43,406 bases of DNA. It comes from an uncultured archaeon. GTDB taxonomy: Archaea; Iainarchaeota; Iainarchaeia; Iainarchaeales; Iainarchaeaceae. Location of the stretch: contig CAYJRH010000001.1 of assembly GCA_964372565.1 (NCBI GenBank), forward strand, positions 1 to 43,406, in the 5' to 3' direction. Below are positions 4,989-43,341 of this stretch, one piece after another. The notes below the pieces were generated by a model. It was not told the origin of the DNA. It saw only the letters and a program-made list of their open reading frames with translations, and ran no database searches. A program made the translations under genes and the position numbers. The stretch's first letter is position 1. Each line of letters begins with the position of its first letter.

Positions 4989-7900
4989 GTGGTTATGGAG
5001 TACCTCAAGGAAGTGAAGGAAGTCGTTGCGGCAATCGTGCCGAAGGAAGCCGAGGTCACCTTGGTGGACCTCGAGGGCCCTGAAATCGCAATCTACACAA
5101 AGAAGCCGAAGGTTTTCCACGACAACGAGGATTACGTGCGCGCAATCGCGCACCAGCTGAAGAAAAAAGTCAACATACGCGGCGACAAGTCATTGCTTAT
5201 AGATGAGAACGAGGCGCGCGAAAAGATAATGAAGATCGTGCCTGAAGGCGCGAAAATCTCGGACATACAGTTCACCGAGGCGTTCAGCGAAGTCGTCATC
5301 GAGGCGCTGAAGCCGGGGCTTGTGATAGGCAAGGGCGGAATGACGACAAAGGAAATAATCCTGCAGACGGGCTGGACCCCGAGGATCCTGCGCAGCCCGA
5401 CATCGCCGAGCGAAATCCTCAAGGGCATCAGGCACCACCTCGTGAAATACGCGCCCGAGCGCAAAAAGATACTCCAGGAAACGGCGAAGAAGATTTATTC
5501 CGAGAAGCCCGCGCCGAGCTGGATAAGGCTCACGCCGCTTGGCGGGTTCAGGCAGGTCGGAAGGAGCTGCATAATGCTCGAAACCCGCCGCACCAAAATC
5601 CTTTTGGATTGCGGAATCAACGTTGCGGCACAAGCCCCCGAAGACGCTTACCCCTTCCTTGATGCGATACGCTTCCCGATAAACGAGCTGGACGCTGTTG
5701 TGCTTAGCCACGCGCACATGGACCACTGCGCATTCATCCCATACCTCTTCAAGCTCGGCTATCGCGGGCCCGTGTACCTCACAGAGCCAACGCGCGACCT
5801 CGCGGCGCTCCTGCTCTTCGATTACCTCGACATACTCGCAAAGGACAACAAGGAGGCGCCGTACAGCGAGCGCGACGTGAAGGAAATGCTCAAGTACTGC
5901 ATTGTGCGCGACTACCGCGAGGTAACGGACATAGCGCCCGACATGAGGCTCACTTTCCACAACGCGGCGCACGTGCTCGGCAGCGCTTCGGTGCACCTGC
6001 ACATAGGAGAGGGCGCCCACAACTTGGTGTATTCTCTTGACCAAAAAACTCCGATTACGGTTTTTGACAAGGATGGAAACATGGAAATATGCGGAATAGG
6101 GAAACTTGTCGACAGGGAAATAAAAAAATTCGGGGTCGGAAACGGCTTTGTGGAGGAGGCAGCTAATTTTAGCGGCTGGAAAACTATTGCGTTCAATCCC
6201 CAAACATTAAAGTCTGAATTAGTGGACATAACCTCTTTCATAAGGCACCCGGTAAACGAGGATTTGTTTGAGATATCCACTTCAACCGGAAGGAAAACCA
6301 CGGTGACTGGCTCCCATAGCGTGTTTATGGTGAAAAATGGCAAAGTTGAAAGTGCCATGGCGAAAGACCTGCGTTTGGGAGATTACATCATAGGCTCGAA
6401 AAATCTTGATTTGACTCAAAAGAAACCGCTTATAAAACTGGAAAAAAATGCTTTTGCGCTCAAGTATAGTGGAAAAGAACTTGGGCTTGTTTTGGAAGCG
6501 TTAAGCGGAAAACTGCAAAAATCTTTCCCGCTTCAAGCTGAAAAAATAACGCCTTGGATAAAGGACAGGCTGGAAAATGGGATGTATGAAAACGCGATAG
6601 CGAAAAAGTACGGCGTTTCGCGAAAAACGGTCAGAAAGTATTTTAAAAAACTCGGGATAGGGAAGAATCCAAGGGTAAAAAATGCCTTTCCGGCAGAGGT
6701 GGAAATAACTGCGGGTTTTGCAAGGTTCTTGGGATACTTTATATCTGAGGGGAGCGTCAACAGAAATACCGTAATCATAACGCAATACCGCAAGGAAATG
6801 CTTGAAGACGCAATAGAAATCATAAAATCTGCCTTTGGCATTAATGGAAAAATAGTGAAATACGAAGCGCAATTCTATTCAAAGCAACTTTGCATGTTGC
6901 TGAAGAAAACTCTAAAGTGCGGGGCTAATGCATATGTTAAAAGAATGCCCAAAGGGCTGGCTTTGGCTCCAAAAGAAGTGATTTCTGAATTCCTGAAAGG
7001 GTATTTTATGGGTGACGGTTCTTTTAGGGTCAGGAAAAACGGCAAAGGCATTTCCATAAACGCCGCCTCCAAAAGCAAATTTTTAATTCAGGAAATAGGA
7101 TTCCTGCTTTTGCGCCTTGGCATTGCCCCGACGTTCGAATACAATAAGAGCAGCAAAATGCACAATGTTCATGTCTATGGCAGAAAACAGTTAGAGGTTT
7201 TTTTGTCTAACGCAAAAATCCCGGAGTGGGAAAAGAAACTTTCGGCAAACCCTTCAATCAAAGAAAAAAGCCATTTTGCGGACCGCCTGCCAATCAAGGC
7301 CCTTTCAGAGCAAACACGGGGCGTTTTAGGCAAGACTTCGTGGCAAAACGCCAAATGCTGCGGCAACACGCTTTTAATGAAATTCGGCTGCGGCGACCAT
7401 GAAAAAAAGCTGGTGGAATCGGATTTGATGCTGGATGAAATTGCAAATATTAGGAAAGTGCGGCCAACCGGCAATTACGTCTACGATTTTTGCGTAAAGG
7501 GGTACGAAAACTTTTTGGGCGGCATCGGGCAATTATTCATGCATAACAGCGCGGACATCAAGTACGGGTTCACGAGGCTTTTCAACAACGTTGACATCAA
7601 CTACCCGAGGATTGAAACCCTCATTGTCGAGAGCACTTACGGGGGCAAGGATGATATTCAGACAGCGCGCGAGGAAACCGAGGCGAAATTGCTGCGCGTG
7701 ATACAGGAAACCGTGAACCAGGGCGGCTCCATACTGGTGCCAGTGTTCGCTGTCGGCAGGGCGCAGGAGCTGCAACTTGTGATCGAGAATTTTTACCGCA
7801 AGGGATTCATAGACTCGGAGGTCAAAGTGTATGTTGACGGCATGACAAAGGAAAGCTCGGCAATACACACCGCTTATCCTGAGTATCTGCGCACGGGCGT

Positions 7901-8408
7901 GCAGAAAAGGGTCCTGCAGAACGACTCGCCATTCACTTCGGACATTTTCCAGGTTGCGAAGCCCGAGGATAGGGATTCGATTTGCCAGAACGGAAAGGTG
8001 ATAATCCTTGCGTCGAGCGGAATGCTGACCGGAGGCGCGAGCGTCCAGTACTTCTACAGGCTGGCCGAGAACCCAATTAACACAATTGCGTTTGTCGGTT
8101 ACCAGGGCGAAGGCTCTTTGGGCAGGAAAATCGTGAGCGGCGTGAAGAGCATACCGATTACGGACAATGGCGGGAGGACAAGGAAGCTCAGCATCAACAT
8201 GCGCGTGGAGCGCCTTGACGGTTTTTCAGGGCACTCGGACAGGATGCAGCTCTCAGCTTATGTGCGCAACCTCAAGCCGAAGCCGAAGCGCATACTGACA
8301 GACCACGGCGAAGCGGAGAAATGCATTGATTTGGCGAAGCACTTCTCGCAGAAGTTCGGGATTAGCTCGCAGGCGATAAGGAACCTGGACAGCGTAAGGC
8401 TGAAGTAA
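4989..8408 (+). CDS. fttA: archaeal CPSF1/FttA-type beta-CASP ribonuclease (2 KH + metallo-beta-lactamase + beta-CASP), interrupted by a 505-aa intein
   Basis: The N-terminal KH region carries VIGKGGMTTKEI, and the MBL motif is VLSHAHMDHCAF. NAAHVLGSAS...HIGEGAHNLVY is followed by the intein and then SADIKYGFTRLF, with the C-terminal beta-CASP/MBL ending in GFSGHSD. Extein length is 634 aa. The start is GTG 4989 or ATG 4995. Confidence 0.93.
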   Translation: MVMEYLKEVKEVVAAIVPKEAEVTLVDLEGPEIAIYTKKPKVFHDNEDYVRAIAHQLKKKVNIRGDKSLLIDENEAREKIMKIVPEGAKISDIQFTEAFSEVVIEALKPGLVIGKGGMTTKEIILQTGWTPRILRSPTSPSEILKGIRHHLVKYAPERKKILQETAKKIYSEKPAPSWIRLTPLGGFRQVGRSCIMLETRRTKILLDCGINVAAQAPEDAYPFLDAIRFPINELDAVVLSHAHMDHCAFIPYLFKLGYRGPVYLTEPTRDLAALLLFDYLDILAKDNKEAPYSERDVKEMLKYCIVRDYREVTDIAPDMRLTFHNAAHVLGSASVHLHIGEGAHNLVYSLDQKTPITVFDKDGNMEICGIGKLVDREIKKFGVGNGFVEEAANFSGWKTIAFNPQTLKSELVDITSFIRHPVNEDLFEISTSTGRKTTVTGSHSVFMVKNGKVESAMAKDLRLGDYIIGSKNLDLTQKKPLIKLEKNAFALKYSGKELGLVLEALSGKLQKSFPLQAEKITPWIKDRLENGMYENAIAKKYGVSRKTVRKYFKKLGIGKNPRVKNAFPAEVEITAGFARFLGYFISEGSVNRNTVIITQYRKEMLEDAIEIIKSAFGINGKIVKYEAQFYSKQLCMLLKKTLKCGANAYVKRMPKGLALAPKEVISEFLKGYFMGDGSFRVRKNGKGISINAASKSKFLIQEIGFLLLRLGIAPTFEYNKSSKMHNVHVYGRKQLEVFLSNAKIPEWEKKLSANPSIKEKSHFADRLPIKALSEQTRGVLGKTSWQNAKCCGNTLLMKFGCGDHEKKLVESDLMLDEIANIRKVRPTGNYVYDFCVKGYENFLGGIGQLFMHNSADIKYGFTRLFNNVDINYPRIETLIVESTYGGKDDIQTAREETEAKLLRVIQETVNQGGSILVPVFAVGRAQELQLVIENFYRKGFIDSEVKVYVDGMTKESSAIHTAYPEYLRTGVQKRVLQNDSPFTSDIFQVAKPEDRDSICQNGKVIILASSGMLTGGASVQYFYRLAENPINTIAFVGYQGEGSLGRKIVSGVKSIPITDNGGRTRKLSINMRVERLDGFSGHSDRMQLSAYVRNLKPKPKRILTDHGEAEKCIDLAKHFSQKFGISSQAIRNLDSVRLK
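6033..7547 (+). mobile_element. intein (505 aa) with a LAGLIDADG homing endonuclease, inside aCPSF1
   Basis: It starts SLDQKTPITV (Ser1) directly after ...HNLVY. Block B is VTGSHSVF (TxxH). The LAGLIDADG motifs are FLGYFISEGSV and LKGYFMGDGSF. Block F/G is VYDFCVKGYENFLGGIGQLFMHN, followed by Ser +1 (SAD...). The segment looks AT-richer than the flanking extein by eye. Confidence 0.9.
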
Positions 8409-35544: not shown

Positions 35545-35744
35545 CCTAATTAATTATGGCGCGCAGAAATATAAAAACCACTCGCCAAATGCGCGAAAAA
35601 CCGGCAGGTATGAGGCCCATTTTTCAGGTATTTAACCAGTTTTCTGGCAATGCCAGGCTCCAGCCGAATTATACGGCAATCCCACCCCCTCAGTATAATA
35701 ATATAAATGTGGGAAGTATTACAGAAGAAAAGAAGCGTGGTAAA

Positions 35745-37850
35745 ATGGGATTCCTGGACTCTATTGTGCGCGGCCTGAACGAGTTTTTCGCCCCGAAAAA
35801 GGCCCAAAAAAAGGAATTGCAGGGCACGAATCTGAAAAAGAGCGCCGCGCTACAAATCAGGGAGGAGCTCAAGGCGTTCCCGAAGAGGGGCCGGCTTCCC
35901 GGCGAGGAACTTGGCGAGGAGTTCGGGGAAGCGCCAGATGTTTCCGGCGGCATTGAAAGGCAGCCAATGTTACAGGTGGCTGAGGAGTTTGGGGACATCG
36001 GGGAAAGAAAAGATGCCGGCATTTTTTTTGAGAGGAGGAAAAAGGGTACGCGTAAGCCGCGCATGAAAAAGCGCCCCGGAAAATTCGGCCGCGGAATGCG
36101 GAAACCGGCACATGGCAAGCCCCGCGGAAAATCGGCGGTGCGTGGGCCATCGGCAAGGCGCTTGCATGCGGGGCGAGGCGTTCCGGCAAGGCGGGCGCAG
36201 GCGGGGCGCGGCGCGGCAGAAGTTATTCAGGCCGAAGGCTACGGGCTGTCCGCCGCGAAAAGGCGGGTGCTGGAAAAGGAAATGGAAAAGTACAAATCAG
36301 TCGTGCGCAGGCTGAGGCGCGATGTGAGGCAGCTGAGGCAGGAGATTTCCACGCAGAAAGTGCAGCCCCATGAGGCGCTTGGCGGGGTGCAGAACCTTTA
36401 CGGCGAAATCAAGTCACAGGGCACCGACATTGACCGCGACATAAAGAACACGAAATCGCTCATGGACTTTTTGGAGAACAGCTTCCTCACTAGGAAAATC
36501 GACGAGCGCGCTTTCAGGGAAAAGATGCAGGAGTACAACGAGAAGCTGCACCTGCTCTCCATACAGAAGAAGGACCTTGATTCGCAGAAGAATGAGCTGC
36601 GCGTGACATCGGAAAAAATCCCCACAAAAACGCCTGTCACGCTCGACATTATCGCGCGGACAAAGGATTTGGAGAGCCTGATTGCGAGGCACGAGGCGGC
36701 GATTGAGAGGATTGAAGGAACGCGTGGCGCTCTGCGTGAGATGCCGGCGCAAACGGTTATTATTGCGCAGCCGCGGCAGGTTTACGCCCAGCTGCCTGAG
36801 GCCGGCCAGAGGAAGCCATGGAGCTTTTTCGGCTTTGGCCAGAAGCCTTTGGAAGGCGCGGAACAGCCTCCTGCGGAAAAATACCCTGAGGCTCCGGGTG
36901 AACAGCCAGATACTGGGACAGCTGAGCCGCAGCCAGCAAAGCATGCGGAAGAAATGAAATCTCCGGCAGCTCCGGCGAAAACAGGGGGCGCTTCGAAAAA
37001 AATTGCGCAGAAACAACCTGCCGCATTTGGCGGAAGAAAGCCCGCGAGAATCCTGCCGCCCGCTCCCGCGGCCAAATCGGCAGGAGCCGCGGAAAAATAT
37101 TTCCCGCGTTTCAAGGAATCGGAACTCGGCACGCCGTCATTAACCGCAAAGCCGCGGCCAGCTTCTTCAAAAGCAAAACCTGTTATGCAGGAGGCGGAAG
37201 AACCGCAGAAACAAAAGGCGCCCCTCAGATTTTTCGGGAAGCCTGATAAACCAAGAACGGATACTGAGCGGGTGGATGATTTCATTGCGCAAAGTGTCGG
37301 CCCCGGGACAAGCCTGGAGAGGGTAACCGAACTCAACAGGAAAATCGGGGATCTCATGCAGAAGTATGACATTTCAGAGGAGGCGCTCGAGGCAAGGCTG
37401 GCAATCGCGAGGCAGGAAAGCAAGGGCGATATAATCGATTCGATGAACAGGCTTGTCGGGCTTATCGAGGCGGAAAGGAGGCAGGGCGAGCAGAAGACGG
37501 AAAGGATTGAAACCGCCATGAGGTTTACCGAGGCGACGGCTGTCCAGGAGGAGGCCAAGGGGGTGGAGACTGAAATAAGGAAAAACGTCATAGTAACCGA
37601 TTTTGACAAGGTGTATTCTATGGTTCAGGGGTCGGGGAGAATCGGCGTCAATGAGATTTCCAGGCAACTCGGGATTCCCAAGGGCAAGGTTGAGGATTGC
37701 CTTAATGTGCTCAGGAGAGAGAAGCAGGTGGAGGTCATCTATCCCGCATTCGGGGACGCGGTCGCGGAAACCATGGATTACCGCATCAGGGCGGAGCTGG
37801 AGAAATTGAAGAAGAAAAAGGAGCAGGCAATGAAAGGGGAGATAAAATGA
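35745..37850 (+). CDS. 701-aa low-complexity/coiled-coil protein with C-terminal winged-helix domain, translationally coupled to the pilus ATPase
   Basis: ATG 35745 is preceded by TATAATAATATAAA (about 35692-35706). The protein has an Arg/Lys/Gly-rich stretch (RRKKGTRKPRMKKRPGKFGRGMRKP...), two coiled-coil segments and a Pro/Ala-rich linker. The C-terminus IGVNEISRQLGIPKGKVEDCLNVLRREKQVEVIYP is wHTH-like. Its stop overlaps the next start (ATGA). Confidence 0.65.
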   Translation: MGFLDSIVRGLNEFFAPKKAQKKELQGTNLKKSAALQIREELKAFPKRGRLPGEELGEEFGEAPDVSGGIERQPMLQVAEEFGDIGERKDAGIFFERRKKGTRKPRMKKRPGKFGRGMRKPAHGKPRGKSAVRGPSARRLHAGRGVPARRAQAGRGAAEVIQAEGYGLSAAKRRVLEKEMEKYKSVVRRLRRDVRQLRQEISTQKVQPHEALGGVQNLYGEIKSQGTDIDRDIKNTKSLMDFLENSFLTRKIDERAFREKMQEYNEKLHLLSIQKKDLDSQKNELRVTSEKIPTKTPVTLDIIARTKDLESLIARHEAAIERIEGTRGALREMPAQTVIIAQPRQVYAQLPEAGQRKPWSFFGFGQKPLEGAEQPPAEKYPEAPGEQPDTGTAEPQPAKHAEEMKSPAAPAKTGGASKKIAQKQPAAFGGRKPARILPPAPAAKSAGAAEKYFPRFKESELGTPSLTAKPRPASSKAKPVMQEAEEPQKQKAPLRFFGKPDKPRTDTERVDDFIAQSVGPGTSLERVTELNRKIGDLMQKYDISEEALEARLAIARQESKGDIIDSMNRLVGLIEAERRQGEQKTERIETAMRFTEATAVQEEAKGVETEIRKNVIVTDFDKVYSMVQGSGRIGVNEISRQLGIPKGKVEDCLNVLRREKQVEVIYPAFGDAVAETMDYRIRAELEKLKKKKEQAMKGEIK

Positions 37851-40800
37851 CCGACAAGCTGTTCAAGGAATACACCGTTGAAACCGAGGGCATAACCGTA
37901 GGCGTGAAAATCGTTTACAGGGAGGGGGAATTCGTAAAAGCCTATATCCTTGACATTCCTGAATACGGGGCGGGAACGCGGGCGCTGCTCGAGAACCTGA
38001 AGCGGCAAATAATAATGGACGCCAATGTGAAGGCCGAGAAGCTGCTTGACCCGAAATTCATAGAAATCCTCAAGCAGCAGTTCAGGGAGAAGGCTGATGC
38101 CATTCTGAAGCGCGAGCTCCCGAAAATCGAGGCGCACACAAAAGGCTCGCTCATAGGCATACTCATCCACGAAATGCTCGGCCTCGGAAAAATAGAGTTT
38201 TTGCTCGCGGACGGCAACCTCGAGGAAATTGTAATTAACAATGCCTCCGAACCCGCGTGGGTTTACAGCAAGGAATTCGGCTGGCTGAGGACAAACGTGA
38301 ACATTGAATCCGAGGAAATGATACAGAACTACGCCAACATAATCGCGAGAAGGGGAGGGAAGCAGATAACAGTGCTCACGCCCCTGCTTGACACCCATCT
38401 TGTGACGGGCGACAGGGCAAACGCAACGCTCTTCCCGATAAGCGGGAAGGGAAACACGCTCACAATCAGGAGGTTCAGGAGAGACCCTTGGACAGTGACC
38501 GACCTCATAAACAACAAGACCGCAAACAGCGATGTAATGTCTTTGGTCTGGCTGTGCATCCAATATGAGATGAACATGATACTCTCAGGGGGAACAGCTT
38601 CGGGAAAGACAAGCTTCCTGAACGTGTGCCTGCCGTTCATACAGCCGAACCACCGCGTGATAACAATCGAGGACAGTGTTTCCGGAGAAAGCGAAATTCT
38701 ATATGAGCATGAAGGCCATGTTGTGAAATCAACGGTTGGGGAATTGGTTGACGGCATAATCGAGGATGATACGCTAGGCGATTGTGTTGTTGAAAACGAT
38801 TATGGCATAAAAATCCCGAGCGCCACAAGAGAGGGCAAGGTCGAGTGGAGAGAACCGAGCCATTTCATAAGGCACCATGTGAAGAAGGATTTGCTGAAAA
38901 TAACCCTAAAGAGCGGAAGAATTGTTGAAGTCACGCCGGATCACTCGTTGTTTGGCATCGGCGATGATTGCATCCTAAGCCAAATCAGCGGCTCGGAGTT
39001 AAAGGAAGGCTCTTGGCTCGCGACCCCAAGAGAACTTGAATGGGCTGGGGAAAAAGTTGTTTTCAGGCTCAATGAACACATCAGCGCCTTTGAAGGCTGC
39101 TTTGTGAAAAGCGTCGAAATCAAAAATCTTATCATGGAAAACAAAGCATTGCTGGCCCAGCATTATTCACGCAACACAATACAGGCAAATTCAAGAAGAG
39201 GGGTGGCTTCCACCGAAATGATTTTGACGCTCCAGAAGGCGCCCACAACCGGATGGATTACATCAAGGCTCGGCACAAAAATACCTATGGAAATTGAGGT
39301 GGACAATGACCTTGCTTGCTTTGCTGGCCTGTGGCTTGCGGATGGGTGTTATGACAAGAACAGCGTACTGGTCTCGGTTGTTGAGGAAGAGGCAAGGGAT
39401 GTGGTGCGCAGGGTTGCTGCAAGGTTTGGCACTGAACCAAAAATGCACTCTGATGGCGTAACACTGATGGTTAACTCCAAGCCTTTCAAGCGCCTCATGG
39501 AAAATGTCCTCGAGCTTAAGGGCAACGCATACACCAAAAAGATGCCTGGGTGGTGCTTCAGGCTTGGCAAAAAAGAACTTGCATCACTTCTGAGCGGATA
39601 CTTTTCAGGCGATGGATGGGTGAGGAAGAATGATATTGCAATAGTTTCGTGCTCTGAACAGCTGCTAAAGGATACACAGACCGCACTGCTAAGGTTCGGC
39701 ATACCATTTCGAATAAGCTGGAAAAAGCGCAAGGACAAAACCTATGAGGCTCGCGTTTCCGGCACCGAATTCCTGAGGAAATTCCTCCAAGAAATAGGTT
39801 TTGTGATAAACAAAAAGAACGCCGCATCAGAAAAATGGCTCACGCAGAATAGCCACGATGTTTCAGATGTCATACCGCTGCCAAAGAAATTCTACAAAGA
39901 GATAAAAAAAGCAAGGAAAGTGGAGGTCGGAACCGGCCTCACTTACAATAGCTGGAAAAGCTGGAGCTCGGCTTACATGAAGGAAAATATTGGAAGGAAC
40001 ACGCTGCAAAAATTTGTGCGCACTTACGGGAATTCCCTGCCAAAGGAGCTTGAGACTGCGGCTTTCGGCGACATTTTTTGGGACAAGGTCATAGCAATTG
40101 AAAGAAGGGGATTCGAAGGGTTCGTATATGACTTCAGCGTGCCGGGAAACGAGAGTTTCGTATGCAATAATATAATATGCCACAACACTCGCGAACTTAT
40201 TTTGCCGGATTTTTTGCACTGGGTTCCTATGACCACGAGGGAGCCTAATGCTGAAGGAAAGGGCGGGGTGTGCCTCTACCCGGGAAATTGGGTAGTGCTT
40301 GGCAACGGCGAAATAAGGGAAATATCAGAATATGCAGAAGAAAAGCTCAAAGCCGGTGAGAAATTCAAGCCAGAAAGCAATGTTACTTGTGTGATGGGGG
40401 ATGAAACGCTCCTTGCCGGAGACCCCGAAAAAATGAGTTATAGAAATGAAAAAATAGCTACGGTATCAAAAGTGACTGAGAGGGAATTCATCTGCTCGGT
40501 CAAATGCCAGAATGGGGAGAGCGCAGTGTTGACAGAGAATACTAGGCTTCCGGTGGTGGGAGAAAAAGGTGAAGTGGAATTGCTTTTGCCAAAGGAAATA
40601 AAGGCAGGAAAATATTACCTCCCGGTATTCACAAAGATAGATGTCGAAGGCTCTTTGCAGGAAATAGACGCAATTGAAATATACTCGAAAGGAAATTATT
40701 ATACCCTTGATGTTTTCCCTGAATTTGAAAAAATGGTTGCAGAGGCAAAAGAGAGGGGGGGAACACTCAAAAGCATTGCAGCACAGGCAGGCATCTCTAG

Positions 40801-42457
40801 ACAAGCTTTGAACTGGCAAATGAAAAATAAATTAGTTAAAATCCCCCTGCTCAAGGAGTTGGTGGATAAATCAAAAATAATGACGCGAACGGAGATTAAC
40901 CAGAGAATCAACGAAATAAGGCCGGGCTCATGGAGCGCAAAATATGCCACGGTGCCAAAAGTGTGTGATGAGGAACTGGCTTATCTGGCTGGCTTTCTCC
41001 AGGCGGAAAAATGGATTGGGAGCAACAAAATGGTGGTTTCGCAGAAAGAAGAAATACCATTCCTTGAAGAACTGTTCCTGAAACTTTTCAGGATAAGAGT
41101 TAGTAAAGGGCACGATAAGACCCAATATGGCGAATACAACAAATACACAATTCTTTCAAAAACCGTTACAAGAATGTTCGCGCAATTGTTCGGCTTAAAA
41201 AAATCAAAGGAATGCAGGGTTCCGCGCATAATACAGCGCTCAACAAACAAGGTAATTGCGTCTTATATCTCTGGTTATATTGACGGGGATGGCTCGGTAA
41301 GCGAGAAAAAAATATCGCTTGCCGTTGGGAATAAAGAAACGGCCATTGAATTCAAATACCTCCTGCACAGGCTTGGCATAAACAGCAGGATACTGGAAGG
41401 GGTGCGAGCATTTGAGGTGAACATCTGCACAAGGCAGGACATCAAAAAAGCCGCGGAAATCATGGAATTCAGGGTAGAAAAAAAGAAGAAAAACGCGGAA
41501 AAAATCGGAAAGACTATTTATGCGCACAATACAAAAAGAAACATTGTTCCGGCACTTTTATTGAGGAACTTCCTAAAAGATTTTAACCTCACAACCGCGG
41601 AAAAAAAAGAGCGTTTTTACCACACAACTGGCAATGGCACGGGCATGAAGAAAAGCTATGTGAAACAGCTCATTGAAACGCAAAAAATTGATGAAAAAAC
41701 CGCGCAGAAAATTTCTCTGTTTTTGAGGGATGATTTGGAATTCGCAAAAATTACAGGGGTGGAAATAGTCCCTAATACTGAAAATATCCCCACTTATGAC
41801 CTCACACCTGAAAAATCGACCTACTTCATGGGTGGGATAAATAATTTTACTATGATTATGGACACAATGCTCGACCTCCTTGTGAACTCGCTGAGGCAGA
41901 GGCCTGACAGGATAATTGTCGGCGAAACAAGGAGGCAGAGGGAAGCCGAGGTGATGTTCGAGGCAATGCACACAGGCCATTCGGTTTACACCACGTTCCA
42001 CGCGAACACCGCGGAGGAAACAATCAGGAGGTTCACCAACCCGCCAATTGACATTCCGCCCACGGTGCTTGATTCCGTGCATTTGAATGTCGTGATGTTC
42101 AGGAACAGGAGGATAGGCGCGAGGAGGATACTGCAGGTCGCGGAATTCATCCCTGAAAAGAGGGGCAGCGAGGAAACGCTCAAGGCAAACACGCTTTATC
42201 GCTGGAGGCCGGGGAACGACGTCATAATCAAGGATTCGGAAAGCATCAGGCTTTATGACGAGCTCTCCATGCACACGGGCCTGACTTATTCTGAAATCGG
42301 GGAGGATATTCTCCAGAAGAAGAGGATACTCGAGTGGCTTGTCAAGAATGACCTGCACAACATCAATGATGTCGGAAAAGTCATGGCAAGATACTACCTA
42401 AACAAGGAAGACGTGGTTGAAGTCGTTGAGAAGGACAAGAAGCCTGATGCCCTATGA
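37847..42457 (+). CDS. type II/IV secretion-system ATPase (archaeal FlaI/PilB/VirB11-like) interrupted by two inteins
   Basis: Walker A is ILSGGTASGKTSFLN and the Asp box is RVITIED|intein-1|TRELILP. ...EPNAEGKGGV|intein-2|TMLDLLVNSLRQRPDRIIVGETR carries Walker B, followed by the His box AMHTGHSVYTTFHA. The extein totals 501 aa. Confidence 0.92.
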   Translation: MTDKLFKEYTVETEGITVGVKIVYREGEFVKAYILDIPEYGAGTRALLENLKRQIIMDANVKAEKLLDPKFIEILKQQFREKADAILKRELPKIEAHTKGSLIGILIHEMLGLGKIEFLLADGNLEEIVINNASEPAWVYSKEFGWLRTNVNIESEEMIQNYANIIARRGGKQITVLTPLLDTHLVTGDRANATLFPISGKGNTLTIRRFRRDPWTVTDLINNKTANSDVMSLVWLCIQYEMNMILSGGTASGKTSFLNVCLPFIQPNHRVITIEDSVSGESEILYEHEGHVVKSTVGELVDGIIEDDTLGDCVVENDYGIKIPSATREGKVEWREPSHFIRHHVKKDLLKITLKSGRIVEVTPDHSLFGIGDDCILSQISGSELKEGSWLATPRELEWAGEKVVFRLNEHISAFEGCFVKSVEIKNLIMENKALLAQHYSRNTIQANSRRGVASTEMILTLQKAPTTGWITSRLGTKIPMEIEVDNDLACFAGLWLADGCYDKNSVLVSVVEEEARDVVRRVAARFGTEPKMHSDGVTLMVNSKPFKRLMENVLELKGNAYTKKMPGWCFRLGKKELASLLSGYFSGDGWVRKNDIAIVSCSEQLLKDTQTALLRFGIPFRISWKKRKDKTYEARVSGTEFLRKFLQEIGFVINKKNAASEKWLTQNSHDVSDVIPLPKKFYKEIKKARKVEVGTGLTYNSWKSWSSAYMKENIGRNTLQKFVRTYGNSLPKELETAAFGDIFWDKVIAIERRGFEGFVYDFSVPGNESFVCNNIICHNTRELILPDFLHWVPMTTREPNAEGKGGVCLYPGNWVVLGNGEIREISEYAEEKLKAGEKFKPESNVTCVMGDETLLAGDPEKMSYRNEKIATVSKVTEREFICSVKCQNGESAVLTENTRLPVVGEKGEVELLLPKEIKAGKYYLPVFTKIDVEGSLQEIDAIEIYSKGNYYTLDVFPEFEKMVAEAKERGGTLKSIAAQAGISRQALNWQMKNKLVKIPLLKELVDKSKIMTRTEINQRINEIRPGSWSAKYATVPKVCDEELAYLAGFLQAEKWIGSNKMVVSQKEEIPFLEELFLKLFRIRVSKGHDKTQYGEYNKYTILSKTVTRMFAQLFGLKKSKECRVPRIIQRSTNKVIASYISGYIDGDGSVSEKKISLAVGNKETAIEFKYLLHRLGINSRILEGVRAFEVNICTRQDIKKAAEIMEFRVEKKKKNAEKIGKTIYAHNTKRNIVPALLLRNFLKDFNLTTAEKKERFYHTTGNGTGMKKSYVKQLIETQKIDEKTAQKISLFLRDDLEFAKITGVEIVPNTENIPTYDLTPEKSTYFMGGINNFTMIMDTMLDLLVNSLRQRPDRIIVGETRRQREAEVMFEAMHTGHSVYTTFHANTAEETIRRFTNPPIDIPPTVLDSVHLNVVMFRNRRIGARRILQVAEFIPEKRGSEETLKANTLYRWRPGNDVIIKDSESIRLYDELSMHTGLTYSEIGEDILQKKRILEWLVKNDLHNINDVGKVMARYYLNKEDVVEVVEKDKKPDAL
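38675..40186 (+). mobile_element. intein 1 (504 aa) with a LAGLIDADG endonuclease, in the ATPase Asp box
   Basis: It starts at Ser1 (SVSGESEILYE). Block B is VTPDHSLF. The LAGLIDADG motifs are FAGLWLADGCY and LLSGYFSGDGWV. Block F/G is VYDFSVPGNESFVCNNIICHN, followed by Thr +1. Confidence 0.9.
40271..41863 (+). mobile_element. intein 2 (531 aa by extein alignment), non-canonical: no block B His, ends ...MIMD instead of ...HN
   Basis: It starts at Cys1 (CLYPGNWVVLGNGE). The block B position reads LTENTRLPVV (T-E-N-T). The LAGLIDADG motifs are LAGFLQAEKWIG (degenerate) and ISGYIDGDGSV. Block F is TYDLTPEKSTYFMGG and the end is INNFTMIMD, followed by Thr (TMLDLL...). The end was set by matching GGV|TMLDLL..LRQRPD to the FlaI-family G-E-[IV]-T-M-x-D-L-L pattern recalled from memory. 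Confidence 0.75.
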
Positions 42458-43341
42458 AACCGAAAATCCCGGGAATGTTCCTGCCGCTGGAAACAATGCT
42501 CAAAATAACCGCACACTTCAGGGGGCTGGGAGGCGCGGCAAAAAAAATCTTCCCTTCGCTTGGGAGGGATCTGGCACAGGCAGAGCTTGAGATAAGTGCG
42601 GAGGACTACGGCGCAATCATGGCAATCATGCCGGCGTTTTACTTTGCCGCCATGTTTTTTGTAACATTCGCGTTTTCGCGCACACTGAACCCCGGGCTCG
42701 CCCTGCCGCTTGCGCTTGTGGTCGGGGCCATTTTTTGGGTGTTGATGCTTGTGCAGCTCGTTTTTTACCCGAAAATCCGGGCCAAGAAAAAGGTCAGGGA
42801 TTTGGAGAGGAACCTTGTCTTTGCTTTGAGGACCATACTTGTGGAAATAAAATCCGGGGTCACGCTCTTTGACGCTATCAATATCATTGCTGAAAGCGAC
42901 AACGGGCAGGTGAGCAAGGAGTTCAAGAGGGCCGTTGAGAAGATGCAGACAGGAACGTTCCAGAACGACGCACTCGAGGAGCTTGGCGAGGCGAACCCCT
43001 CGCTGCATTTCAGGAGGGCAATCTGGCAGCTCGTGAACGGGCTGAAGGCGGGCTCGGACACAAGCCTTGTGATGACCGCTCTTGTCGACAGCCTCACTAA
43101 GGAGAAGGACAACCAAATCAGGAAGTACGGAAACTCGCTCAAGCTGCTCTCCCTTGTTTACATGATGCTGGGCGCGATAATCCCGGCGTTGGGCCTCACG
43201 TTCCTCATTATCCTTTCCACTTTCCCCCAGATTAAAATAACCGAAATGTACTTCTGGGGGATGCTCGGCTTCATACTGGTCGGGCAGTTCATGTTCCTCG
43301 GCATGATGAAATCCGTGAGGCCGACGCTGCTGGGTGAATGA
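42454..43341 (+). CDS. type II secretion system F-domain membrane protein (FlaJ/TadC/PilC-like platform), single-domain form
   Basis: It has several TM segments. The T2SSF-like core reads LVFALRTILVEIKSGVTLFDAINIIAES...FKRAVEKMQTGTFQNDALEELG...RRAIWQLVNGLKAGSD. The ATGA overlap with the ATPase stop indicates coupling. Confidence 0.8.
   Translation: MKPKIPGMFLPLETMLKITAHFRGLGGAAKKIFPSLGRDLAQAELEISAEDYGAIMAIMPAFYFAAMFFVTFAFSRTLNPGLALPLALVVGAIFWVLMLVQLVFYPKIRAKKKVRDLERNLVFALRTILVEIKSGVTLFDAINIIAESDNGQVSKEFKRAVEKMQTGTFQNDALEELGEANPSLHFRRAIWQLVNGLKAGSDTSLVMTALVDSLTKEKDNQIRKYGNSLKLLSLVYMMLGAIIPALGLTFLIILSTFPQIKITEMYFWGMLGFILVGQFMFLGMMKSVRPTLLGE

What the first reader, a model, noticed from the sequence alone, without database searches (positions are those of the whole stretch)
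40271..41863. Second ATPase intein lacks every conserved His and the terminal Asn; it may be splicing-dead, domesticated or mechanistically atypical
Extein alignment places the insert between ...EGKGGV and TMLDLLVNSLRQRPDRIIVGE (Walker B). The insert begins with Cys1 and has recognisable block A, block F (TYDL...YFMGG) and an endonuclease motif (GYIDGDGSV). Three canonical features are missing:
- The block B TxxH position reads T-E-N-T (codon ACT at 40541-40543). There is no His anywhere in the first 280 or so residues of the insert.
- The residue before the C-terminal junction is Met, not His.
- The last residue is Asp, not Asn (...FTMIMD|T).

Inteins ending in Asp or Gln are known but rare. 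Loss of block B His, the penultimate His and Asn together is unusual. If the element cannot splice, the ATPase carries a 531-aa insertion next to Walker B and the whole pilus system would be inactive or re-purposed. If it does splice, the chemistry differs from the standard pathway.
Basis: partly seen in the sequence, partly recalled or inferred. Interest (0 to 1): 0.75.

Follow-up and report, generated by a model that had tools for sequence, protein, structure and literature searches.

The report
Histidine-free, Asp-ended intein in pilus ATPase
The second insert in this archaeal pilus-type ATPase is a real self-splicing element (an intein) from a small conserved family that has replaced every usual catalytic histidine and the usual final asparagine, so it most likely still splices using an unusual set of residues.

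Summary
Window 40271-41863 encodes a 531-aa in-frame insert (Cys1 ... FTMIMD|T) in a DPANN (Iainarchaeia-like) FlaI/TadA-type ATPase. Intein-free alleles of exactly 501 aa, up to 84% identical, fix both junctions. Block B reads T-E-N-T and the last two residues are Met-Asp.

The "splicing-dead" reading is not supported. I found ten further full-length inteins at the same site, in Iainarchaeia, Woese-/Nanoarchaeota and Hadesarchaea, 35-73% identical (plus a 75% copy with one frameshift). All keep Cys1, T-E-N-T, block F Y-D..T-P-E, a terminal Asp and a +1 Thr/Ser, and none has a conserved His. dN/dS against the 73% relative is about 0.06, and the splicing blocks are the most constrained parts. 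One member has lost both endonuclease catalytic residues but keeps all the splice residues. AlphaFold gives a confident HINT + LAGLIDADG fold (pLDDT 87) that matches solved inteins.

A sister clade at another site in related ATPases also ends in Asp but keeps the His. His-less block B (Tko CDC21-1 group) and Asp termini (Chy RIR1) each have experimental precedent. The combination, fixed across a clade, appears undescribed. Splicing is inferred here, not shown.

The parts
37847..42457 (+). Host gene: FlaI/TadA/CpaF-type type II/IV secretion ATPase, 1536-aa precursor and 501-aa mature protein
   Evidence: Pfam T2SSE E 1.8e-26. Homologues up to 84% identical and exactly 501 aa are named type II/IV secretion ATPase, CpaF or FlaI in Diapherotrites/Iainarchaeia MAGs.
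38588..38611 (+). Walker A (GGTASGKT) in the N-extein
   Evidence: Invariant in the extein alignment. Coordinates.
38675..40186 (+). First intein, 504 aa and canonical: Ser1, block B T-P-D-H, ends C-H-N|T, inserted in the Asp box IED|TRE
   Evidence: Pfam Intein_splicing 75.8 bits and LAGLIDADG_3. Alignment. P0100 carries a 169-aa mini-intein at the same site.
40187..40270 (+). 28-aa extein segment between the two inteins (TRELILPDFLHWVPMTTREPNAEGKGGV). The -1 residue is Val.
   Evidence: The -1 position is V or I in all 105 empty alleles scored and in all intein-bearing alleles.
40271..41863 (+). Second intein, 531 aa: HINT splicing domain split by an HTH and a LAGLIDADG homing endonuclease
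40271..40312 (+). Block A (CLYPGNWVVLGNGE). Cys1, Pro4, Gly5, Gly11 and Gly13 are invariant in the family.
40481..40507 (+). Strand R71-E-F-I-C75-S-V-K-C79. Arg71 and Cys75 are invariant only in this clade; relatives have Pro and Val/Tyr/Ile there. These are candidate compensating residues.
   Evidence: Clade-specific invariants. The AF2 strands at model 79-85 and 90-93 form a hairpin that puts Cys75 opposite Thr88 (inference).
40532..40543 (+). Block B T88-E89-N90-T91 in place of T-x-x-H. Thr91 sits at the position of His B:10.
   Evidence: Invariant in 11 of 11 full-length family members. Aligned to TxxH of canonical inteins.
40730..40816 (+). Helix-turn-helix region between the N-terminal HINT half and the endonuclease
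   Evidence: Weak Pfam HTH hits here, below curated cut-offs, and stronger ones in relatives (HTH_3 9.1e-08). Helices in the AF2 model.
40976..41011 (+). LAGLIDADG motif 1 (LAYLAGFLQAEK). The catalytic acidic residue is Glu246.
41267..41293 (+). LAGLIDADG motif 2 (ISGYIDGDG). The catalytic residue is Asp340.
   Evidence: Pfam LAGLIDADG_3 4.9e-12.
41789..41827 (+). Block F (PTYDLTPEKSTYF). Asp510 (F:4) is kept, T-P-E is invariant, and T-Y-F replaces the usual H-N-F.
41843..41863 (+). Block G (NFTMIMD). The penultimate residue is Met (M/Q/E in the family) and the terminal Asp531 is invariant.
41864..41866 (+). +1 Thr, the C-extein nucleophile
   Evidence: Thr or Ser in every intein-bearing allele. 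In 105 empty alleles the position is S 43, T 22 and other residues 40.
41900..41926 (+). Walker B (RPDRIIVGE) in the C-extein, 12 residues after the junction
42454..43341 (+). Downstream T2SSF (TadC/FlaJ-like) membrane platform gene, overlapping the ATPase stop codon
   Evidence: Pfam T2SSF 2.2e-15.

Best explanation
This is a genuine, most probably splicing-competent, class-1-type intein with a nested LAGLIDADG homing endonuclease. It belongs to a small clade that occupies one site, GG[VI]|[TS]M, just before Walker B, in FlaI/TadA-type ATPases of DPANN archaea and Hadesarchaea.

The clade has a fixed, histidine-free catalytic set: Cys1, Thr-Glu-Asn-Thr in block B, Asp at F:4, a terminal Asp, and a +1 Thr/Ser.

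The likely pathway is inferred from the known intein mechanism:
1. N-S acyl shift at Val(-1)-Cys1. It would be helped by the retained Thr B:7 and Asp F:4 and by the bulky beta-branched -1 residue. Clade-specific residues (Thr91, Glu89, and possibly Arg71 or Cys75) would take over the polarising or oxyanion-stabilising role of His B:10.
2. Trans-esterification to Thr+1.
3. Cyclisation of the terminal Asp (to an anhydride) instead of Asn, without a penultimate His.
4. O-N shift that joins GGV to TMLDLL and restores the ATPase.

The endonuclease and the patchy presence or absence among close alleles indicate that the element is, or recently was, mobile.

Shown here: boundaries, fold, conservation, selection and distribution. 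Inferred: that it splices, and which residues compensate.
For: Boundaries: intein-free alleles of exactly 501 aa, up to 84% identical.

Family: ten further full-length same-site inteins, from nine genome loci L001-L009 in Iainarchaeia, Woese-/Nanoarchaeota and Hadesarchaea plus P0121, at 35-73% identity. All are intact ORFs and all carry C1, TENT, YD..TPE...[MQE]D|[TS]. Metagenome loci agree: L029, L031 and L032 repeat or closely match L001, L007 and L009, and L030 (75%) carries one frameshift.

Selection, window versus L001: pN is 0.12 in the N-terminal HINT half and 0.09 in the C-terminal half, against 0.23 in the linker, with pS about 0.74. Overall dN/dS is about 0.06. L002 versus L003 gives 0.075.

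+1 nucleophile: always T/S in intein-bearing alleles, but 38% non-nucleophile in 105 empty alleles.

L009 has lost both LAGLIDADG catalytic acids (LAGFLLAGK, LIDGNG) yet keeps every splice residue.

Host motifs (Walker A, Asp box, Walker B, His box) are intact.

Structure: the AF2 model has pLDDT 87.4 and pTM 0.90. Foldseek top hits are solved LAGLIDADG inteins: TliVMA 7qss at E 1.8e-25, PI-PkoII at TM 0.70, PhoVMA and PI-PfuI.

Distribution: close alleles exist with both inteins (window, L001), with only intein 2 (L030, L002, L003) or with none (P0001 and others).

Precedent:
- Inteins ending in Asp/Gln/Glu are held to cyclise that residue (PMC4031507).
- The Tko CDC21-1 intein is active without His B:10 (PMC4031507, PMC7765530).
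- Bulky -1 residues can compensate for a missing block B His (PMC6333167).

A sister clade of at least 15 inteins at GP[ST]F|..|[TSC]IRKF also ends in Asp, so the Asp terminus is an old, stable trait.
Against: No splicing assay exists for any member, so activity is inferred from conservation alone.

Curated intein models score below threshold: Pfam Intein_splicing 16.2 against 35.8, TIGR01445 13.4 against 24.5, and no C-terminal model hit. The splicing domain is therefore strongly divergent.

The compensating residues are guesses. I had no access to model coordinates and could not measure distances.

Two relatives carry lesions. L011 has an 11-nt deletion and Cys1 changed to Ser. L030 has a frameshift in an A-run. 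Some copies therefore do decay, or the assemblies contain errors.

Synonymous sites are saturated, so the dN/dS values are rough.
Confidence: 0.75

Rival explanations
1. Splicing-dead relic. The intein lost its catalytic His residues and its Asn by decay, the ATPase carries a permanent 531-aa insert, and the gene is inactive or on its way to becoming a pseudogene.
For: All three usual His residues and the terminal Asn are missing. Intein HMMs score below their cut-offs. One of the two His-B:10-less inteins listed in the 2014 review (PMC4031507) was a pseudogene. L011 looks decayed.
Against: The same substitutions are invariant in eleven full-length members spanning several archaeal phyla. dN/dS is about 0.06 and the splicing blocks are the most constrained regions. 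The 531-codon ORF at 42% GC has no stop. The host catalytic motifs are intact and the exteins are 76-84% identical to those of relatives. The +1 nucleophile is always retained.
Confidence: 0.06
2. Domesticated or conditional element. The insert is kept because it regulates the ATPase. It might splice only under a trigger such as redox state (through the conserved Cys75/Cys79 and Cys1), pH or temperature. Alternatively it might work as a permanent accessory domain.
For: Cys75 is invariant and Cys79 nearly invariant, close in sequence to block B. Weak catalysis without His could make splicing slow and condition-dependent. Slow step 3 is reported for Gln-ended inteins (PMC4031507).
Against: Presence and absence among close alleles are patchy, and the endonuclease motifs are intact in 10 of 11 members. 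That pattern fits a selfish mobile element rather than a fixed regulator. A permanent domain would not need Cys1, a terminal Asp and a +1 Thr. Nothing here tests conditionality.
Confidence: 0.1
3. Cleavage-only HINT domain (BIL-like). It cuts at one or both junctions without ligating, which splits the ATPase into fragments.
For: In the Chy RIR1 Asp-ended intein, changes at the terminal residue gave cleavage instead of splicing (my recollection of Amitai et al. 2004; the paper is cited but not held).
Against: BIL domains typically lack the +1 nucleophile (PMC7664689). Here the nucleophile is invariant. Walker A lies in the N-extein and Walker B in the C-extein, so ligation is needed for an active ATPase. 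The exteins stay conserved.
Confidence: 0.05
4. The boundaries are misplaced or the sequence contains errors, and the true junction is a canonical HN|[CST].
For: None was found. The only H-N in the insert is at residues 419-420, inside the endonuclease part.
Against: Empty alleles define the junctions to the residue. Independent assemblies from different samples give the same termini.
Confidence: 0.01

Closest known systems
Tko CDC21-1 intein and its orthologues (MCM/CDC21 helicase, site ...GAGL|C)
   Same: Class-1 inteins with Cys1 that naturally lack His B:10 and are still active (PMC4031507, PMC7765530). In my set, 18 related MCM-site inteins (plus one at a similar QQGIGI|C site) have T or N at B:10, mostly T-x-N-T, very like T-E-N-T here. 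They have a bulky -1 residue (Leu; here Val/Ile), which Friedel et al. suggest may help (PMC6333167).
   Different: They end in the canonical His-Asn and sit in a different host protein. In neighbour-joining bootstraps on HINT columns they never group with this clade (0 of 200), so the loss of His looks independent. The compensating Lys58 of Tko has no conserved counterpart here; the aligned position varies among K, Q, G, C and S.
Chy RIR1 intein (Carboxydothermus hydrogenoformans ribonucleotide reductase), the described Asp-ended intein
   Same: A C-terminal Asp replaces Asn, and the intein is reported to splice (Amitai et al. 2004, cited in PMC4760082 and PMC4031507; details from my own knowledge).
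   Different: It is a bacterial intein in a different host protein. As far as I recall it keeps the block B His. It is a single case rather than a conserved clade.
Sister clade of Asp-ended inteins at GP[ST]F|C...[FYH]D|[TSC]IRKF in other archaeal FlaI-like ATPases (P0124-P0133, P0141, L012-L020)
   Same: Closest sequence relatives outside the family (E 1e-29 to 1e-12, 21-28% identity). They share the architecture, the host superfamily and the invariant terminal Asp.
   Different: They keep T-x-N-H with a second His three residues later. They sit at a different insertion site. The penultimate residue is aromatic or His.
Solved archaeal LAGLIDADG inteins: TliVMA/PhoVMA (7qss, 7qst), PI-PkoII (2cw7), PI-PfuI (1dq3)
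   Same: Same overall fold, HINT domain plus a two-motif LAGLIDADG endonuclease. Foldseek E values range from 1.8e-25 to 7.4e-16, with TM up to 0.79 normalised to the target.
   Different: Judging from close relatives in my alignments, and for PI-PfuI from the direct alignment, these carry canonical T-x-x-H and H-N. Sequence identity to this intein is only 14-18%.
Mja KlbA-type (class 2) inteins of archaeal VirB11/KlbA ATPases
   Same: Same host superfamily. Archaeal VirB11 and CpaF ATPases are known intein hosts, with 21 and 5 inteins in Novikova et al. (PMC4760082).
   Different: Class 2 inteins lack the position-1 nucleophile (Ala1) and need His B:10 and Asp F:4 (PMC4031507). This intein has Cys1 and no His B:10.

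Membership tests
Intein (HINT-domain protein-splicing element) | In-frame insertion in a conserved host protein, absent from otherwise co-linear alleles | tested here: met
   501-aa empty alleles up to 84% identical, with the junction exact to the residue.
Intein (HINT-domain protein-splicing element) | HINT fold with the N- and C-terminal halves flanking the endonuclease | tested here: met
   AF2 pLDDT 87.4. Foldseek probability 1.00 to solved inteins, TM up to 0.79.
Intein (HINT-domain protein-splicing element) | Match to curated intein sequence models at their cut-offs (Pfam PF14890, TIGR01445, TIGR01443) | tested here: not met
   PF14890 scores 16.2 bits against a cut-off of 35.8. TIGR01445 scores 13.4 against 24.5. 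TIGR01443 gives no hit. Eight of ten family members give sub-threshold PF14890 hits.
Intein (HINT-domain protein-splicing element) | Actual protein splicing (excision plus ligation) | not testable with these tools
   Inferred only, from conservation and selection.
Class 1 intein | Nucleophile (Cys/Ser) at position 1 | tested here: met
   Cys1 is invariant in 11 of 11 full-length members.
Class 1 intein | Cys/Ser/Thr at +1 | tested here: met
   Thr here, and T/S in all members.
Class 1 intein | Cyclisable C-terminal residue (Asn; rarely Gln, Asp or Glu) | tested here: met
   Asp531 is invariant. It is the rare variant (PMC4031507).
Class 1 intein | Block B Thr B:7 and His B:10 | tested here: not met
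   Thr B:7 is present, but B:10 is Thr in all members.
Class 1 intein | Asp at F:4 | tested here: met
   Y-D510 is invariant.
Class 1 intein | Penultimate His G:6 (common, not obligatory) | tested here: not met
   Met here, and M/Q/E in the family.
Class 3 intein | No position-1 nucleophile; Trp (block B), Cys F:4, Thr G:5 triplet | tested here: not met
   Cys1 is present, F:4 is Asp and there is no Trp in block B.
Class 2 intein (KlbA type) | Ala or another non-nucleophile at position 1, with direct attack by +1 | tested here: not met
   Cys1 is invariant.
LAGLIDADG homing endonuclease (two-motif, intein-borne) | Two LAGLIDADG motifs, each with an acidic catalytic residue | tested here: met
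   LAGFLQAE246K and YIDGD340G. Pfam LAGLIDADG_3 at 4.9e-12. Matches to the VMA inteins at 1e-7, and at 1e-22 with the family profile. Cleavage activity was not tested.
Tko CDC21-1 orthologue group | Insertion at the MCM ...GAGL|C site and common descent with that group | tested here: not met
   Different host protein and site. It groups with them in 0 of 200 bootstraps.

The most novel reading that the evidence does not exclude
The family would be a distinct mechanistic type of intein with an entirely histidine-free active site. Clade-specific invariant residues (Arg71, Cys75, Glu89 and Thr91 at the N-junction; Asn525, Thr527 and Asp531 at the C-junction) would form a new catalytic arrangement. 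One possibility is a second active-site thiol or a guanidinium doing the job of His B:10, with Asp-anhydride formation needing no His G:6. The splicing chemistry or its control (pH or redox dependence) would then differ in kind from classes 1-3.
Probability: 0.15. Interest if true: 0.8.

Novelty: new variant of a known kind. Interest (0 to 1): 0.6.

Why it matters
His B:10 is described as the most conserved residue in inteins. Reviews up to 2020 list only the Tko CDC21-1 group and one pseudogene as lacking it. Asp-ended inteins rest essentially on one studied case.

This work finds a naturally conserved clade, eleven full-length members across several archaeal phyla, that combines three deviations:
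- no His at B:10, F:13 or G:6;
- a terminal Asp;
- a Thr at +1.

A sister clade of at least 15 members also ends in Asp. If these inteins splice, they show how far the HINT active site can be stripped and still work. They would also give a natural test bed for His-independent N-S acyl shift and for Asp cyclisation, and could yield splicing tools with a different pH or metal sensitivity.

There is a practical point as well. Standard intein HMMs miss this family at their curated cut-offs. Such inteins, and the true size of their host proteins, will therefore be mis-annotated in DPANN genomes.

Tried and rejected
1. A word-index homology search with the intein alone found nothing. Low-complexity Lys/Glu words probably swamped the candidate list. 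The full HMMER scan of cluster representatives found the family instead.
2. The first AlphaFold run, on a 4-sequence alignment, gave an unusable HINT domain (pLDDT 54).
A 24-row full-length alignment worked.
4. I considered a shifted C-junction at ...GGINN|F, which would give an Asn terminus. I rejected it for three reasons: Phe is not a nucleophile, it would add 6 residues that are absent from all empty alleles, and it would make block F-G three residues too short compared with canonical inteins.
5. I considered common descent with the His-less MCM-site inteins and rejected it on bootstraps (0 of 200).
6. I looked for a conserved Lys equivalent to Tko Lys58, just after the position 22 residues past B:10. 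That position is not conserved here.
8. The Amitai 2004 paper is not held in the library. What I say about Chy RIR1 beyond the reviews comes from memory.
9. I could not obtain model coordinates, so distances from Cys1 to Arg71, Cys75, Glu89 and Thr91 could not be measured.
Full report
**1. What is in the sequence**

The window carries one long ORF, 37847..42457 on the + strand, of 1536 aa. Pfam finds a type II/IV secretion ATPase domain (T2SSE), split into pieces by two insertions that carry LAGLIDADG and intein signatures.

The finding concerns the second insertion.
- Translating 40271-41863 gives 531 sense codons. They start with Cys and end ...GGINNFTMIMD, and the next codon is Thr.
- His occurs only at intein residues 281, 366, 419 and 451.
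- The insert is AT-richer (41.8% GC) than the exteins (51-52%) and than the first intein (46.9%).

**2. Boundaries**

I removed both inserts and searched with the 501-aa spliced sequence. Thousands of ATPases came back.
- The best hits are exactly 501 aa, 78-84% identical over 100% of the length. They come from 'archaeon' or Candidatus Diapherotrites/Iainarchaeum MAGs and are named type II/IV secretion ATPase, CpaF or FlaI.
- In the alignment they read ...REPNAEGKGGV-x-M[LI]DLLVNSLRQRPDRIIVGE with no gap at either site. The second insert is therefore exactly Cys809...Asp1339 of the precursor.
- The first insert is Ser277...Asn780, window 38675-40186. It is canonical: block B T-P-D-H, ending C-H-N|T.
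- The host keeps Walker A, the IED Asp box, Walker B and the HTGH box, all invariant in that alignment.
- A T2SSF platform gene follows directly.

**3. Is T-E-N-T really block B, and is Asp really the last residue?**

- MAFFT of the N- and C-terminal HINT parts with canonical relatives aligns T-E-N-T with T-P-A-H, T-P-V-H, T-K-E-H, T-P-D-H and T-T-N-H. It aligns ...M-D with ...H-N.
- A profile of the family aligned to PI-PfuI (1dq3) runs through Y-D-L-T..E...F.AG....v-H, one residue short of the end. This places the family's penultimate residue on His and its last residue on Asn.
- The usual block F 'H-N-F' is T-Y-F here.
- All three customary His positions (B:10, F:13, G:6) and Asn G:7 are therefore replaced. 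Cys1, Thr B:7, Asp F:4 and the +1 nucleophile remain.

**4. The family**

A word-index search with the intein alone found nothing. An exhaustive HMMER scan of 1.8 billion cluster representatives found three close relatives (P0121, P0122, P0123; 37-45% identity). They sit at the same site in the same ATPase family, with the same T-E-N-T and, where the sequence is complete...FTLVQD|[ST].

Scanning one genome per GTDB species with a family alignment gave eleven same-site loci:
- Candidatus Iainarchaeum: L001 at 73%, L002 at 53%, L003 at 50% and L005 at 44%.
- Woesearchaeota and Nanoarchaeota: L004, L006, L007, L008, L010 and L011, at about 36%.
- A Hadesarchaea MAG: L009 at 36%.

Two of these loci are incomplete or damaged. 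L010 is cut by its contig end, and L011 is frameshifted (see section 6). A metagenome scan added L030 at 75% and copies that are identical or near-identical to L001, L007 and L009.

In the eleven complete members, every ORF is intact. The invariant HINT residues include C1, P4, G5, G11, G13, R71, C75, G82, T88-E89-N90-T91, P94, P107, P118, Y509-D510, T512-P513-E514, F519, G522, N525, T527 and D531. The penultimate residue is M, Q or E. No His is conserved anywhere.

**5. Selection**

- Between the window and L001, synonymous sites are saturated (pS about 0.74).
- Non-synonymous differences are low and lowest in the splicing parts: pN 0.12 in HINT-N and 0.09 in HINT-C, against 0.16 in the endonuclease and 0.23 in the linker/HTH.
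- Overall dN/dS is about 0.06. L002 versus L003 gives 0.075.
- The intein (73% identity) evolves only slightly faster than its exteins (76-78%).
- The +1 position is T (S once) in every intein-bearing allele. In 105 empty alleles it is S 43, T 22 and something else 40 times (G, E, N, K, A, Q, R, D, L). A nucleophile is apparently required wherever the intein is present.
- L009 has lost both LAGLIDADG catalytic acids (LAGFLLAGK and LIDGNG, against ..AEK and ..DGDG elsewhere). It still keeps C1, TENT, the terminal D and T+1. This is the pattern expected when splicing stays essential to the host after the homing function has decayed.

**6. Distribution**

Among close alleles there are genes with both inteins (window, L001/L029), with only the second (L030, L002, L003, L005) and with neither (P0001-P0011, up to 84% identical, closer to the window than L001's host is). 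This patchiness, together with intact endonuclease motifs in 10 of 11 members, fits a mobile element that is gained and lost.

Two copies carry lesions:
- L011 has an 11-nt deletion just after codon 1 and a Cys1-to-Ser change.
- L030 has a single frameshift inside an A-run, with both halves otherwise conserved.

These may be decay or assembly errors.

**7. Structure**

With four sequences AlphaFold failed on the HINT part (pLDDT 54). With a 24-row alignment of full-length relatives it gave pLDDT 87.4 and pTM 0.90.

The predicted layout is N-terminal beta-rich HINT half, helical HTH region, alpha/beta LAGLIDADG core, then C-terminal beta strands.

Foldseek against the PDB returns solved archaeal LAGLIDADG inteins first:

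| Hit | PDB | E-value | TM-score |
|---|---|---|---|
| TliVMA | 7qss | 1.8e-25 | 0.79 (target-normalised) |
| PI-PkoII | 2cw7 | 2.3e-23 | 0.70 (query and target) |
| PhoVMA | 7qst | 2.8e-19 | 0.76 (target-normalised) |
| PI-PfuI | 1dq3 | 7.4e-16 | 0.66 (target-normalised) |

Mini-inteins, including PhoCDC21-1 (6rpq), match the HINT part.

Curated sequence models, by contrast, fall below their cut-offs: PF14890 at 16.2 against 35.8 bits, TIGR01445 at 13.4 against 24.5, and no TIGR01443 hit. Automatic annotation would miss the splicing domain.

**8. Relatives outside the family**

- The nearest outgroup is a clade of at least 15 inteins at a different site (GP[ST]F|C...[FYH]D|[TSC]IRKF) in other archaeal FlaI-like ATPases. 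They keep T-x-N-H but also end in Asp.
- A further relative sits 12 residues upstream in the same host (HWVRLE|C...NPN|T; P0129, and upstream of the intein in L009). It has T-P-N-S in block B but ends in Asn.
- Among 91 related inteins, the only others without His at B:10 are 18 at the MCM site ...GAGL|C, plus one at a similar QQGIGI|C site. They have T or N at B:10 and all end H-N.
- The Leu at -1 matches what Friedel et al. report for the Tko CDC21-1 orthologues (PMC6333167). I take these to be that known group.
- Neighbour-joining bootstraps on HINT columns:

| Grouping | Support (of 200) |
|---|---|
| This family monophyletic | 200 |
| This family + the HWVRLE-site intein | 165 |
| This family + the Asp-ended sister clade | 112 |
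| This family + the MCM group | 0 |

The loss of His B:10 here is thus probably independent of the MCM case. The Asp terminus is probably older than the family.

**9. What the literature says**

[quoted passage not shown] Of two inteins then known without it, one was a pseudogene and the other (Tko CDC21-1) uses Lys58 instead (PMC4031507; repeated in PMC7765530).
- Inteins ending in Asp, Gln or Glu are taken to follow the class 1 path with cyclisation of that residue (PMC4031507).
- Several inteins lack the block B His or the penultimate His and still splice thanks to compensatory changes (PMC7664689).
- Bulky -1 residues can substitute for the block B His in the N-S shift (PMC6333167).
- Archaeal VirB11 and CpaF ATPases are known intein hosts (PMC4760082).
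- I found no description of this family or of this combination of features. My searches cover only the held library.

**10. Mechanism proposed (inferred)**

I propose the standard four steps with substitute helpers.
- **Step 1.** Thr88 (B:7) and Asp510 (F:4) are retained. The beta-branched Val/Ile at -1 is invariant, although the host imposes that residue too. Thr91 at B:10, with the invariant Glu89 and Asn90, could hydrogen-bond the scissile amide or the oxyanion.
- **Candidate extra helpers.** Arg71 and Cys75 are invariant only in this clade, where relatives have Pro and a hydrophobic residue. By the hairpin register in the model (strands 73-79 and 84-87), Cys75 lies opposite Thr88 on the same sheet face. 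I could not measure distances.
- **Step 2.** Thr+1 attacks the thioester.
- **Step 3.** Asp531 cyclises without a penultimate His. Invariant Asn525 and Thr527 are candidates to orient it.
- **Step 4.** A spontaneous O-N shift completes ligation.

**11. Verdict**

The 'dead or inactive pilus system' reading is unlikely. The element is best read as an active member of an undescribed, conserved, His-free, Asp-ended intein clade. That makes it a new variant of a known kind, pending a splicing assay.

Noticed in passing
window 4989-8408 (+): A third intein lies in the window. The FttA/aCPSF1 gene (KH_TffA, metallo-beta-lactamase, Beta-Casp, RMMBL) is interrupted by an intein with a LAGLIDADG endonuclease, at about residues 350-853 of the 1139-aa ORF. 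It ends with a canonical ...LFMHN|S.
   Followed up: partly
window 38675-40186; protein P0100: The first ATPase intein (Ser1...CHN|T in IED|TRE) has a 169-aa mini-intein counterpart at the same site in P0100, with the endonuclease deleted and starting SVSGKSEILY. L001 and L006 carry full-length versions, while L002, L003, L005 and L030 lack it.
   Followed up: partly
L012-L020; proteins P0124-P0128, P0130, P0131, P0133, P0141: A clade of at least 15 inteins at GP[ST]F|C...|[TSC]IRKF in other DPANN FlaI-like ATPases all end in Asp (F-D, Y-D or H-D) while keeping block B T-x-N-H. Asp-ended inteins therefore seem far commoner in these archaeal ATPases than the single classical example suggests.
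   Followed up: partly
P0129 residues 332-814; L009 upstream of 238; L032: Another intein sits 12 residues upstream in the same host (HWVRLE|C...GFVATNPN|TRPPN). It has block B T-P-N-S (no His) and a Pro-Asn terminus. It groups with the studied family in 165 of 200 bootstraps.
   Followed up: partly
L011:2990-3010: A Woesearchaeota copy has an 11-nt deletion right after the first intein codon and TGC changed to TCC (Cys1 to Ser). This puts the rest of the otherwise well-conserved intein out of frame. It is either a freshly inactivated copy or an assembly error.
   Followed up: yes
L030:1899-1905: The closest relative (75% identity, intein 2 only) has one frameshift, at a position that corresponds to the A-rich EKKKK stretch of the window (intein residues 412-417). 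Both halves and the C-extein stay conserved in their frames, which suggests a homopolymer sequencing error rather than decay.
   Followed up: partly
L009:238-1821: The Hadesarchaea member has lost both LAGLIDADG catalytic acids (LAGFLLAGK, LIDGNG) but keeps all the splice-site residues.
   Followed up: yes
proteins P0139, P0148, P0150, P0154, P0157, P0158, P0166, P0171, P0177, P0181, P0184, P0247; loci L022-L024, L026-L028: Eighteen MCM-type inteins at ...GAGL|C have Thr or Asn instead of His at B:10 (T-x-N-T, T-P-E-T, T-x-E-N) with a normal H-N end. They are probably the known Tko CDC21-1 orthologue group. In contrast, the solved Pho/Pab CDC21-1 inteins (6rpq, 6rpp) show T-P-T-H.
   Followed up: partly
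window 35556-37850 (+): A 764-aa ORF lies directly upstream and overlaps the ATPase start codon by 4 bases. It is rich in Lys, Arg, Glu, Pro and Ala, largely low-complexity, and has no Pfam match.
   Followed up: no
window 40271-41863 versus flanks: The second intein is markedly AT-richer (41.8% GC) than its exteins (51-52%) and than the first intein (46.9%). This is consistent with a foreign origin or a different codon regime.
   Followed up: no
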